Part shown: in pieces, positions 26,095 to 27,000 of the stretch
How the letters are laid out: every line of letters starts with the position of its first letter
Numbering within the stretch: position 1 is the first letter of the stretch
Assembly: GCA_036726305.1 (NCBI GenBank)
Contig: DAIMCP010000020.1
Coordinates: 2,995-66,994 of the forward strand
Direction: 5' to 3'
Source of the DNA: Pyrinomonadaceae bacterium
GTDB taxonomy: Bacteria; Acidobacteriota; Blastocatellia; Pyrinomonadales; Pyrinomonadaceae
DNA length: 64,000 bases
Position numbers and translations under genes: made by a program
Notes under the pieces: generated by a model
What the model was told of the DNA's origin: nothing
Database searches by the model: none
The model's input: only the letters and a program-made list of their open reading frames with translations

Positions 26095-26646
26095 CTAATT
26101 TATTGCTTTCTTATGTGTCAGTATATTGCACGCCGCGGCAGCGCTGCCTGGATCAATCGCTTCCGTTCCTTCGTCGATATGACGAATGATCCCTTCTTTA
26201 TCGATTACAAATGTGGCGCGATTACCAAACCCCTGCTCTTCATTGAAAACTCCGTAATCTCTGACCACGGTTCGCTTGAAATCACTCAGTAGCGGGAAGG
26301 TGACGCCAATTTGCTTGGCAAACTCGCGATTGGCCGGAACGCTATCCACGCTCAGTCCGAACACCTGAGTGTCACTTGCTTCGAATTTGGCGATATCAGC
26401 CTGATACGCCTTCATTTCCTTCGTTCAACCTCCGGTGAACGCGAGCACATAAATTGCCAGAACCACGTTCTTCTTACCGGTAAAGTCACTCAGTTTATAG
26501 GTTTTGCCGTCCGTAGCACGCAAAGAAAATTCGGGCGCTTTGTCACCCACCTTCAGAGAAGTTTTGGGTGGCGGAGACTGTTGTGACAGCGCAGCTGTGG
26601 CAAATAGTAAGAGCAATCCCACTGAAACCATGATTTTCCTGATCAT
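26095..26646 (-). CDS. secreted AhpC/TSA (Bcp-like) peroxiredoxin with selenocysteine (TGA 26425..26427) at the peroxidatic position
   Basis: ORFs 26425..26715 and 26095..26415 are in the same frame and separated only by TGA. The joined protein reads '[45 protein letters not shown]'. The ATG at 26646 has a GGGAGG RBS and a signal peptide ([23 protein letters not shown]). Confidence 0.8.
26389..26410 (-). promoter_or_regulatory. candidate bacterial SECIS hairpin for the peroxiredoxin UGA
   Basis: Starts 14 nt after the UGA: GGCGUAUC-AGGCU-GAUA(U)CGCC. The stem is 4+4 bp with one bulged U. The GG in the apical loop lies about 23 nt from the UGA. Confidence 0.5.
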
Positions 26647-27000
26647 GCCTTTGTCCTCCCTTTCTTGAGTTCCATCACCGAGCGGGAACGCCACTTTCTT
26701 CGGCTCGTCAGGCAAGCTGAATTAGCGCCAATACCTGCAGCGCGGACTTCCCTGGGATGTCGGCAGCATAGTGCCTGATCAATATTCTCGCAAGCAATTT
26801 CCTGCCAGGTATCAACCCTTCCAGCTGGTCGCAATCGGGAACATATCTCGTTCATCCATGTTTAAAAACTCAAGAATTCCTCAAGGGTCATGCCGTAAGA
26901 CTTTTGGAGTGATCGGAAATCACGCCGTTCAAACTTGGAGCCTTCACCGGCGAATGCTTCGGATGTCAAGTTAACAGGGATCAAGGAACCAGAATTAACA

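What the first reader, a model, noticed from the sequence alone, without database searches (positions are those of the whole stretch)
26095..26715. In-frame TGA at the peroxidatic-Cys position joins two ORFs into a secreted selenocysteine peroxiredoxin
The ORF track splits this locus into 26425..26715 and 26095..26415. Both are on the minus strand in the same frame, with a single TGA (26425..26427) between them. Read through, the protein is '...[46 protein letters not shown]...'. That is the T-x-x-C(P) active-site motif of AhpC/TSA/Bcp peroxiredoxins, with the UGA exactly where the catalytic Cys belongs. Neither half is a complete thioredoxin fold on its own. Fourteen nt after the UGA there is a hairpin (26389..26410) with GG in its apical loop about 23 nt from the UGA, which is the geometry expected for a bacterial SECIS. 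A Sec-type selD is in the same window, so the recoding machinery is plausible. The signal peptide predicts a periplasmic selenoperoxidase. A standard gene caller would miss the gene or annotate it as two fragments.
Basis: partly seen in the sequence, partly recalled or inferred. Interest (0 to 1): 0.8.

Follow-up and report, generated by a model that had tools for sequence, protein, structure and literature searches.

The report
Selenocysteine peroxiredoxin hidden by stop codon
Two short neighbouring "genes" are really one gene for an exported antioxidant enzyme (a peroxiredoxin) whose catalytic residue is selenocysteine, encoded by a UGA "stop"; the reading is sound, but this kind of enzyme has been known since 2001, so this is a new lineage rather than a new principle.

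Summary
On the minus strand, 26646..26095 is one 183-codon frame interrupted by a single TGA (26427..26425).

- **Protein:** with that codon read as sense, the product matches the whole AhpC/TSA domain. The TGA aligns with the peroxidatic Cys of M. tuberculosis AhpE and of Cys-type homologues (56-60% identity).
- **Conservation:** the TGA is present in 80 of 80 species-representative genomes (Pyrinomonadaceae/Blastocatellia, Acidobacteriota) and in more distant metagenome homologues.
- **Hairpin:** 26410..26389 starts 14 nt after the UGA and has a GGC loop. It is conserved, shows compensatory changes, and lies in the stretch of lowest synonymous variation in the gene. Cys-codon homologues lack it.
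- **Not a reassigned codon:** TGA ends 14 of 36 long ORFs in the window.
- **Second case:** selD (45140..46171) has its own conserved TGA and GG-loop hairpin.
- **Not shown:** selA, selB and tRNA-Sec were not found in the window and could not be searched genome-wide. Export and peroxidase activity are inferred.

Sec peroxiredoxins (TxxU) are an established family, so this is a new member. Its differences are AhpE-like sequence, a signal peptide, Val in place of the canonical Pro, and consistent mis-annotation in public data.

The parts
26095..26646 (-). Complete selenoprotein gene: 183 codons plus TAA stop (26097..26095). It encodes an AhpE-like peroxiredoxin precursor with Sec at residue 74.
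   Evidence: frame; full AhpC-TSA match, E = 1e-38; AhpE, E about 1e-27; homologues.
26655..26660 (-). Shine-Dalgarno-like GGGAGG, 8 nt upstream of the ATG at 26646.
   Evidence: Read from the sequence. Public gene calls start the 73-aa N-terminal product at the same ATG.
26584..26646 (-). Predicted Sec-type signal peptide, residues 1-21 ([21 protein letters not shown] | QQSPPP): basic n-region, 15-residue hydrophobic core, A-L-S at -3..-1, no Cys (so no lipobox) and no twin-Arg.
   Evidence: Sequence reading. Homologues keep an equivalent N-terminus ending ...ALAQ. No signal-peptide predictor was available, so this is inferred.
26425..26427 (-). In-frame UGA = Sec74 codon, at the peroxidatic position of the motif V-L-A-F-T-G-G-U.
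   Evidence: TGA in 91 of 91 loci and in the more distant L174-L179. Cys codons at this site in L180-L182.
26389..26410 (-). SECIS-like hairpin inside the coding region (codons K79-A86): 9-bp stem with one 3'-side bulge and apical loop GGC. It begins 14 nt after the UGA.
   Evidence: 96.9% of cells paired; two pairs with compensatory changes; lowest synonymous diversity in the gene; a third compensatory change; absent in Cys-type genes.
26128..26130 (-). Codon of Cys173, invariant in both Sec-type and Cys-type homologues. Candidate resolving cysteine.
   Evidence: invariant column C173; 82 of 82 Cys, TGC/TGT both used. The role is inferred.
45140..46171 (+). selD (selenophosphate synthetase), itself a selenoprotein. 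In-frame TGA at 45173..45175 at the position of the E. coli Cys17 equivalent ('CSG-U-AAK').
   Evidence: TGA in 67 metagenome relatives by the first motif scan and in 71 with a broader motif; Cys codons in 7.
45200..45220 (+). SECIS-like hairpin of selD: CUCGCUCA-GGUUU-UGAGCGGG, starting 24 nt after its UGA.
   Evidence: mean 7.9 of 8 pairs in TGA-type loci, 3.3 of 8 in Cys-type loci.

Best explanation
26646..26095 (minus strand) is a single gene for an exported peroxiredoxin of the AhpE-like branch of the AhpC/TSA family. Its peroxidatic residue is selenocysteine.

Proposed mechanism:

1. The ribosome reaches UGA74.
2. The hairpin 14 nt downstream, within codons 79-86, acts as a bacterial SECIS. 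It recruits SelB-GTP-Sec-tRNA(Sec), Sec is inserted, and translation continues to the TAA at 26097..26095.
3. The N-terminal signal peptide sends the chain through the Sec translocon. Cleavage after ALS21 leaves a mature periplasmic enzyme of about 162 aa.
4. Its selenolate, positioned by Thr71 and Arg143, reduces peroxides to give a selenenic acid.
5. The selenenic acid is resolved by the invariant Cys173 (forming a selenenylsulfide) or by an external periplasmic thiol protein.

Shown: the conserved UGA opposite Cys; coding constraint on both sides; the conserved, covarying, UGA-linked hairpin; peroxiredoxin homology with Thr and Arg kept; and a second UGA+hairpin gene (selD) in the same genome.

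Inferred: actual Sec insertion, export, peroxidase activity, the role of Cys173 and the reductant.
For: - **Frame and motif:**
- **Family:** full-length AhpC-TSA match spanning the TGA. The U aligns with the peroxidatic Cys of AhpE and with Cys in 55 homologues.
- **Conservation of the TGA:** present in 80 of 80 species-representative Pyrinomonadaceae/Blastocatellia genomes and in all other Sec-clade loci. Amino-acid identity is 0.87 upstream and 0.83 downstream of it.
- **Hairpin:** 96.9% of cells paired across 80 distinct sequences, against 10-64% when the 3' partners are slid. G-C<->A-U occurs 6 times and U-A<->C-G 5 times, the latter coupling a synonymous TAT>TAC change with a non-synonymous GAT>GGT change. 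A further G-C>A-U change is seen in L174.
- **Synonymous sites:** diversity is 0.17 in codons U-2..U+15 against 0.46 elsewhere. This is the second-lowest of 135 windows, and the lowest starts one codon later. Mann-Whitney p = 4e-7.
- **Control:** Cys-codon homologues form only 3-5 of 9 pairs in the same register and have no GG loop.
- **TGA is an ordinary stop** for 14 of 36 long ORFs in the window.
- **selD in the same window** has a conserved TGA opposite Cys and its own GG-loop hairpin.
- **Precedent:** Sec peroxiredoxins with TxxU are an established family (PMC1088965, PMC1794560, PMC13188914).
Against: - selA, selB and tRNA-Sec were not found in the 64-kb window or in about 1 Mb of related loci around prx and selD in this clade. 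The rest of the genome could not be searched.
- The hairpin alone is thermodynamically unremarkable (z = -0.23), and its loop is only 3 nt.
- The canonical Pro of PxxxTxxC is replaced by Val in all Sec-type sequences, so catalytic competence as a peroxidase is not guaranteed.
- No conserved neighbouring reductase gene was found.
- Export rests on reading the sequence only.
- Much of the conservation comes from related genomes, so cell counts overstate the number of independent events.
Confidence: 0.88

Rival explanations
1. The TGA is a genuine stop. The locus is then a pseudogene, or two separate small genes: a 73-aa secreted peptide and a 106-aa C-terminal fragment.
For: Public annotations call it that way. 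No Sec machinery was seen in the window.
Against: The same TGA is kept in 80 of 80 species with strong amino-acid conservation on both sides. Neither half is a complete domain, and together they cover the profile 1-124 of 124. A pseudogene would not keep frame, Thr71, Arg143 and Cys173 at 60-88% identity. The downstream ORF's ATG (Met78) is Leu in most relatives (column 53), so it has no conserved start.
Confidence: 0.02
2. The UGA is read through without selenocysteine. Possible routes are near-cognate decoding as Trp, Cys or Arg stimulated by the downstream hairpin, or a lineage-wide reassignment of TGA (code 4 or 25).
For: Some pipelines translated the homologues with Trp at this site. A conserved downstream hairpin could in principle stimulate read-through.
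Against: TGA terminates 14 of 36 long ORFs in the window, so there is no reassignment. The 'W' is a code-4 calling artefact on short contigs: the DNA is TGA and the locus does not translate to the stored protein under code 11. The site is the catalytic Cys position, where Trp, Gly or Arg would inactivate the enzyme. The same genome has Sec-type selD with a similar GG-loop hairpin, and the only known function of that site is as Sec or Cys.
Confidence: 0.04
3. Sec is inserted, but the protein is not a peroxidase. With the active-site Pro lost and a conserved C-terminal Cys, it would act as a periplasmic selenol/thiol oxidoreductase (for example disulfide reduction or isomerisation, or reduction of another substrate), like the 'Prx-like' UxxC selenoproteins.
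For: Val replaces the canonical Pro in all Sec-type members. In the window and in 20 of 80 genomes, a DsbA/SurA-like periplasmic thiol oxidoreductase lies convergent to it. It scores below the cut-offs of all curated peroxiredoxin equivalogs.
Against: The motif is TxxU, not UxxC. Thr71 and Arg143, the other catalytic residues of peroxiredoxins, are invariant. The closest solved relatives are all true peroxidases. Cys-type sisters keep the full PxxxTxxC motif.
Confidence: 0.08

Closest known systems
Sec-containing peroxiredoxins (TxxU), first shown as PrxU of Eubacterium acidaminophilum (Sohling et al. 2001; listed in PMC13188914, PMC1794560, PMC1088965)
   Same: AhpC/TSA fold. Sec replaces the peroxidatic Cys in a T-x-x-U motif. 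In-frame UGA followed by an intragenic hairpin. Cys-type homologues are widespread, and repeated Cys-to-Sec conversions have been inferred for this family (PMC1794560).
   Different: Not an orthologue of PrxU (NCBIfam NF040737: 72 bits against a cut-off of 270). The sequence is closest to AhpE-type enzymes. It carries a signal peptide. Its motif is VxxxTxxU rather than the PxxxTxxU described as highly conserved (PMC13188914). It is found in Pyrinomonadaceae/Blastocatellia genomes, mostly from soil metagenomes, whereas the selenoprotein-rich organisms tabulated in PMC1794560 are almost all anaerobes.
Mycobacterium tuberculosis AhpE (Rv2238c; PDB 1XVW, 1XXU, 5ID2)
   Same: Best solved-structure match (E about 1e-27). 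The alignment spans the active site '..LAFTG-x-C', and the Arg of 'NR-x-TFV-D' is kept.
   Different: AhpE uses Cys, keeps the Pro (FPLAFTGIC in the alignment) and starts at the mature domain with no signal peptide. It is described as a cytoplasmic 1-Cys enzyme (my own knowledge). The window protein has Sec, Val, a signal peptide and an extra invariant C-terminal Cys173.
Cys-type sister proteins (for example Bryobacteraceae MAGs: P0038, P0047; loci L180-L182)
   Same: 56-60% identical, same length, same N-terminal signal-like segment, same C-terminal Cys, motif ..AFTGG-C-TKEM.
   Different: They have a TGC codon, Pro retained (YPAAFTGGC), and no hairpin after the codon.
Prx-like thiol:disulfide oxidoreductase selenoproteins (UxxC; PMC1088965)
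   Same: Thioredoxin-fold selenoproteins, distantly related to peroxiredoxins.
   Different: Their Sec lies in a thioredoxin-like UxxC motif, not at the TxxU peroxidatic position.
Bacterial SECIS elements (E. coli fdhF type; consensus model of Zhang & Gladyshev 2005, cited in PMC1088965)
   Same: A stem-loop immediately downstream of the UGA, inside the ORF, with a small apical loop containing G (PMC1088965). Spacing here is 23 nt from the UGA to the loop for prx and 32 nt for selD.
   Different: The loop is only 3 nt (GGC), or 5 nt if the closing A-U pair opens. The bulged U is on the 3' side. No binding to SelB has been shown.

Membership tests
Peroxiredoxin (AhpC/TSA, PF00578) | Full-length match to the family domain above the curated cut-off | tested here: met
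   132.5 bits against a cut-off of 26; profile 1-124 of 124, residues 33-157, spanning the UGA.
Peroxiredoxin (AhpC/TSA, PF00578) | Peroxidatic Cys/Sec three residues after a conserved Thr/Ser (TxxC/U) | tested here: met
   F-T71-G-G-U74. It aligns with AhpE Cys45 and with Cys in 55 homologues.
Peroxiredoxin (AhpC/TSA, PF00578) | Conserved Pro of the PxxxTxxC motif | tested here: not met
   Val67 is present in all 40 Sec-type full-length proteins and in 82 of 82 loci. Pro is present in all 55 Cys-type proteins.
Peroxiredoxin (AhpC/TSA, PF00578) | Conserved active-site Arg | tested here: met
   R143 is invariant. It aligns with the Arg of AhpE 'NRGTFVVD'.
Peroxiredoxin (AhpC/TSA, PF00578) | Peroxide-reducing activity | not testable with these tools
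   Needs an enzyme assay.
Bacterial selenoprotein | In-frame UGA aligned with Cys in homologues, with conserved coding sequence on both sides | tested here: met
Bacterial selenoprotein | Stem-loop just downstream of the UGA with G in a small apical loop (bacterial SECIS) | tested here: met
   Absent in Cys-type genes.
Bacterial selenoprotein | selA, selB and tRNA-Sec present in the same genome | tested here: inconclusive
   None were found in the window or in fetched loci of this clade. Indirect support: selD in the window is Sec-type. More distant selD loci L168 and L172 carry both tRNA-Sec(tca) and selA, and L166 carries selA.
Bacterial selenoprotein | Selenium found in the protein | not testable with these tools
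   Needs 75Se labelling or mass spectrometry.
PrxU (NCBIfam NF040737, Sec peroxiredoxin equivalog) | Score at or above the curated cut-off | tested here: not met
   72.3 bits against 270.
Bcp / PrxQ (NCBIfam NF006960) | Score at or above the curated cut-off | tested here: not met
   74.6 bits against 140. A true Cys-type Bcp is elsewhere in the window (42555..43079, 184 bits).
AhpE subfamily of peroxiredoxins | Closest similarity to AhpE-type enzymes; 1-Cys mechanism | tested here: inconclusive
   The top seven PDB hits are AhpE-type (six M. tuberculosis AhpE entries, plus 4xih, named only 'AhpC/TSA family protein'), at E about 1e-27 to 1e-26. The best Bcp hit is at 3e-23. Some homologues are labelled 'mycoredoxin-dependent peroxiredoxin' by JGI. 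No subfamily profile was available, and the invariant Cys173 argues against a strict 1-Cys mechanism.

The most novel reading that the evidence does not exclude
This would be an independently evolved clade of exported (periplasmic) selenoperoxiredoxins. It is conserved across the Pyrinomonadaceae/Blastocatellia genomes sampled here, mostly from soil metagenomes. In it the Cys-to-Sec switch is coupled to loss of the otherwise near-universal active-site Pro (PA to VL, giving VxxxTxxU). That would suggest selenium relaxes or changes the active-site architecture that thiol peroxiredoxins need. It would also mean a large, unannotated selenium demand in a dominant soil lineage, together with a Sec-type selD linked to an EgtB/SenA-like gene.
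Probability: 0.4. Interest if true: 0.55.

Novelty: new member of a known kind. Interest (0 to 1): 0.4.

Why it matters
- **Annotation.** The gene is wrongly annotated in every public record I saw. It appears as two fragments of 73 and 106 aa, or on short contigs as a Trp-containing protein from a code-4 call. Selenium use by Pyrinomonadaceae, which contributed all 80 species-representative genomes here, is therefore invisible to standard pipelines. I found no paper on selenoproteins in this lineage.
- **Curation.** A curated model for this clade would let annotation pipelines call it correctly.
- **Enzymology.** The perfect Sec/Val versus Cys/Pro split gives a natural pair for asking what the conserved Pro does in peroxiredoxins and what Sec buys the enzyme.
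- **Ecology.** An exported selenoperoxidase in soil Acidobacteriota links trace-selenium availability to oxidative-stress defence outside the cytoplasm.

Tried and rejected
- **RNA and tRNA scans.** Rfam at gathering thresholds on the whole window found nothing. As far as I recall Rfam has no bacterial SECIS family, so that part is uninformative; tRNA-Sec was also not found. ARAGORN found no tRNA in the window and no tRNA-Sec in the prx loci.
- **Search for selA/selB.** tblastn with E. coli SelA and SelB (taken from NC_000913) against the window and all prx loci gave no hits. Against 80 selD loci it found selA only next to more distant selD genes.
- **Other window ORFs.** NCBIfam and Pfam scans of the other large ORFs found no selA or selB.
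- **Extending the contig.** One end protein was not on record, and the other was found only on short contigs.
- **Source organism.** The cluster look-up returned no names.
- **Conserved partner gene.** Clustering ORFs of the 80 loci showed no universally conserved neighbour. The DsbA/SurA-like gene is adjacent in only 20 of 80.
- **More selenoprotein genes in the window.** A scan for TGA-bridged ORFs gave only prx and selD as credible cases. 55575..56537 was rejected because its downstream ORF is a zinc-ribbon-like protein with its own start.
- **Searches not run.** I considered a third large protein search with a SelA fragment from L172. I rejected it because the top 120 hits would be relatives of that organism rather than Pyrinomonadaceae. 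I skipped structure prediction because the tool returns no coordinates, so the U74-C173 distance could not be measured.
- **Thermodynamics.** Single-sequence folding energy is not evidence for the hairpin (z = -0.23).

Full report
**1. The observation**

ORFs 26715..26425 and 26415..26095 share one frame and are separated by a single TGA at 26427..26425. The peptide across it is ...[44 protein letters not shown]....

The most likely start is ATG 26646..26644, 8 nt downstream of GGGAGG (26660..26655). The read-through product is then 183 aa and ends at TAA 26097..26095. Public gene calls on identical contigs start the N-terminal product at this ATG and split the locus into 73 aa + 106 aa. Both pieces hit AhpC-TSA/Redoxin.

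**2. What the protein is**

With Cys substituted for the stop, the protein matches Pfam AhpC-TSA over the entire profile (1-124 of 124, residues 33-157, E = 1e-38). The TGA therefore lies in the middle of one domain, and neither half is a complete domain.

The best solved relatives are M. tuberculosis AhpE entries (1XVW, 1XXU, 5ID2; E about 1e-27). In those alignments 'LAFTGGc' pairs with 'LAFTGIC', the peroxidatic Cys45, and 'NRATFVID' pairs with 'NRGTFVVD'. Thr71, Arg143 and a C-terminal Cys173 are invariant among homologues.

No curated NCBIfam equivalog is reached: Bcp scores 74.6 against a cut-off of 140, and the Sec-peroxiredoxin model PrxU scores 72 against 270. So the protein belongs to the AhpC/TSA superfamily and is nearest to AhpE-type enzymes. 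It is not an orthologue of the characterised PrxU.

**3. Is the TGA real and conserved?**

A database search gave three kinds of close relatives:

- 106-aa C-terminal fragments, 88-100% identical;
- full-length proteins with 'W' at the critical column (40 sequences);
- full-length proteins with Cys there (55 sequences, 56-60% identity, for example Bryobacteraceae MAGs).

The 'W' is an artefact. The DNA carries TGA, and the loci do not translate to the stored proteins under code 11, which suggests the short contigs were called under code 4.

A scan of one genome per species returned 80 loci, all from Pyrinomonadaceae/Blastocatellia (Acidobacteriota), at 65-90% identity. All 80 have TGA at this codon, and 91 of 91 loci do once the metagenome copies are counted. 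Amino-acid identity to the window protein averages 0.87 over the 42 residues upstream of the TGA and 0.83 downstream. Both sides are therefore under coding constraint. This rules out a sequencing error, a pseudogene, or two unrelated genes.

TGA is not reassigned in this genome, since it terminates 14 of 36 long ORFs in the window.

**4. The hairpin**

GGCGUAUCA-GGC-UGAUA(U)CGCC occupies 26410..26389. It starts 14 nt after the UGA, and the loop G lies 23 nt after it. Folded alone, the 61-nt region is no more stable than shuffled sequence (z = -0.23), so thermodynamics alone says nothing. The comparative evidence is strong.

- Across 80 distinct sequences, 96.9% of pair cells form standard pairs. 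With slid partners the figure is 10-64%.
- Two pairs show compensatory changes. The outermost G-C becomes A-U in 6 sequences. An inner U-A becomes C-G in 5 sequences, where a synonymous TAT>TAC is always accompanied by a non-synonymous GAT>GGT (Asp>Gly).
- G>A at the fourth position can be absorbed by pairing with the bulged U. In the more distant L174 and L175 it is matched by C>U.
- Synonymous-codon diversity is 0.17 in codons U-2..U+15 and 0.46 in the rest of the gene. This window ranks second-lowest of 135, and the lowest starts one codon later. Mann-Whitney p = 4e-7. The codons flanking the UGA (GGT, ACG) are nearly invariant.
- As a control, three Cys-type homologues (TGC) form only 3-5 of the 9 pairs in the same register and have no GG loop.

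A structure that is tied to the presence of the UGA, sits at the right distance and has G in a small apical loop matches the published description of bacterial SECIS elements (PMC1088965).

**5. Is the host a Sec decoder?**

selD lies at 45140..46171. The conventional ORF lacks the first 32 positions of the SelD model. The extension upstream reads [18 protein letters not shown], which places the TGA where Cys-type SelD proteins have Cys.

In the 80 metagenome relatives, the first motif scan found TGA at this site in 67 and Cys codons in 7. A broader motif raised the TGA count to 71. The TGA-type genes carry a hairpin, CUCGCUCA-GGUKY-UGAGCGGG, 24 nt after the UGA. It forms a mean of 7.9 of 8 pairs, with a U-A>C-G compensation. 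The Cys-type genes average 3.3 of 8.

So the same genome has two unrelated genes that each carry a conserved UGA opposite a catalytic Cys and a UGA-linked GG-loop hairpin.

I could not find selA, selB or tRNA-Sec. There is none in the window and none in the prx or selD loci of this clade. In more distant selD loci, L168 and L172 carry both tRNA-Sec(tca) and selA, and L166 carries selA, next to selD. Acidobacteria are on record as having selenoproteins (PMC1794560). This remains the main untested point.

**6. Location and mechanism**

Residues 1-21 ([21 protein letters not shown]|QQ) have the features of a signal-peptidase-I signal: a basic n-region, a hydrophobic core, and A-x-S at -3/-1. There is no lipobox Cys and no twin-Arg. 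Homologues, including the Cys-type ones, keep an equivalent segment. Export is inferred, since no predictor was available.

The proposed cycle runs from selenolate, through peroxide attack to a selenenic acid, to resolution by Cys173 or an external thiol. It follows from established peroxiredoxin chemistry and the conserved residues, and it has not been tested.

No conserved partner gene was found. A periplasmic DsbA/SurA-like protein (24431..26059) is convergent to prx, but it is adjacent in only 20 of 80 genomes.

**7. A difference from known members**

All 40 Sec-type full-length proteins, and 82 of 82 Sec-type loci, read Y-V-L-A-F-T-G-G-U. All 55 Cys-type proteins read Y/F-P-A-A-F-T-G-G-C. 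The near-universal Pro of PxxxTxxC, described as conserved in Sec peroxiredoxins too (PxxxTxxU; PMC13188914), is therefore replaced by Val exactly where Sec is used.

There is one exception, P0001 (V with C). It comes from a read-run assembly whose DNA I could not inspect. Because the Sec clade may descend from a single ancestor, this coupling may reflect one evolutionary event rather than repeated co-occurrence.

**8. Comparison with what is known, and novelty**

Sec-containing peroxiredoxins with TxxU have been known since PrxU of Eubacterium acidaminophilum. They are among the commonest prokaryotic selenoproteins in metagenomes (43 sequences in the Sargasso Sea set, PMC1088965). Several independent Cys-to-Sec conversions have been inferred for the family (PMC1794560; review PMC13188914). 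The finding is therefore a new member of a known kind.

The differences are AhpE-like sequence, a signal peptide, Val for Pro, an invariant C-terminal Cys, and occurrence across all 80 species-representative Pyrinomonadaceae/Blastocatellia genomes examined. I found no literature on selenoproteins in this lineage.

**9. Verdict**

I put the confidence that this is a Sec-encoding peroxiredoxin gene at about 0.88. The remaining doubt is the unverified selA/selB/selC, plus the lack of any experimental evidence for Sec insertion, export or activity. Interest is moderate (0.4): it is a correct and cleanly supported recoding call and a useful annotation fix, with one intriguing active-site twist, but it is not a new kind of system.

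Noticed in passing
window 45140..47613 (+); L094-L159, e.g. L128 10070..14007: Sec-type selD is immediately followed by an EgtB/SenA-like gene (46195..47613; EgtB model 464 bits, above its cut-off; SenA model 342 bits, below its cut-off of 420). tblastn found the EgtB-like gene in 32 of the 80 metagenome selD loci, and many of the other loci are short contigs. 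In some loci, such as L128, an FAD disulfide oxidoreductase (RclA/MerA-like) sits between the two. This resembles senC-senA of selenoneine biosynthesis, but no senB-like gene is evident (44040..45110 has no family hit).
   Followed up: partly
P0002-P0059; L010, L174-L179: Forty public full-length homologues carry 'W' at the Sec column. The underlying DNA is TGA, so these short contigs were evidently called under genetic code 4. This artefact can disguise selenoprotein genes as Trp-containing proteins.
   Followed up: yes
P0001 (SRR6476659-derived protein): This is the only sequence combining the Sec-clade motif (YVLAFTGG) with Cys instead of Sec. It could be a Sec-to-Cys reversion or a translation artefact.
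   Followed up: no
L168 716..810 (-), L172 848..942 (-), L166 3..599: More distant selD loci (64-69% identity over the N-terminus) carry Sec machinery next to selD. L168 and L172 have tRNA-Sec (anticodon TCA) and selA, and L166 has selA. This arrangement is absent around selD in the window's clade.
   Followed up: partly
window 26935..27810 (+) and 27831..31328 (+): Two adjacent ORFs in different frames both resemble one MalT/AAA-TPR-type regulator (N-terminal ATPase part, then the rest). The same split is seen on an independent metagenome contig (L001). They may be a frameshifted or genuinely split regulator, divergent from prx.
   Followed up: no
window 42555..43079 (-), 36865..38507 (-), 14108..14710 (-), 24431..26059 (+): The window also holds several other redox-defence or envelope-redox genes: a Cys-type Bcp (184 bits), MsrP/MsrQ, a DsbD_N-like protein, and a SurA_N+DsbA-like thioredoxin protein with a CPSC motif.
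   Followed up: partly
window 26416..26430 (-); alignment A2 columns 1-15: The codons flanking the Sec codon are almost frozen at the nucleotide level: GGT-TGA-ACG, with GGT in 82 of 82 and ACG in 81 of 82. This suggests a constraint on the context of the UGA itself, beyond the hairpin.
   Followed up: partly
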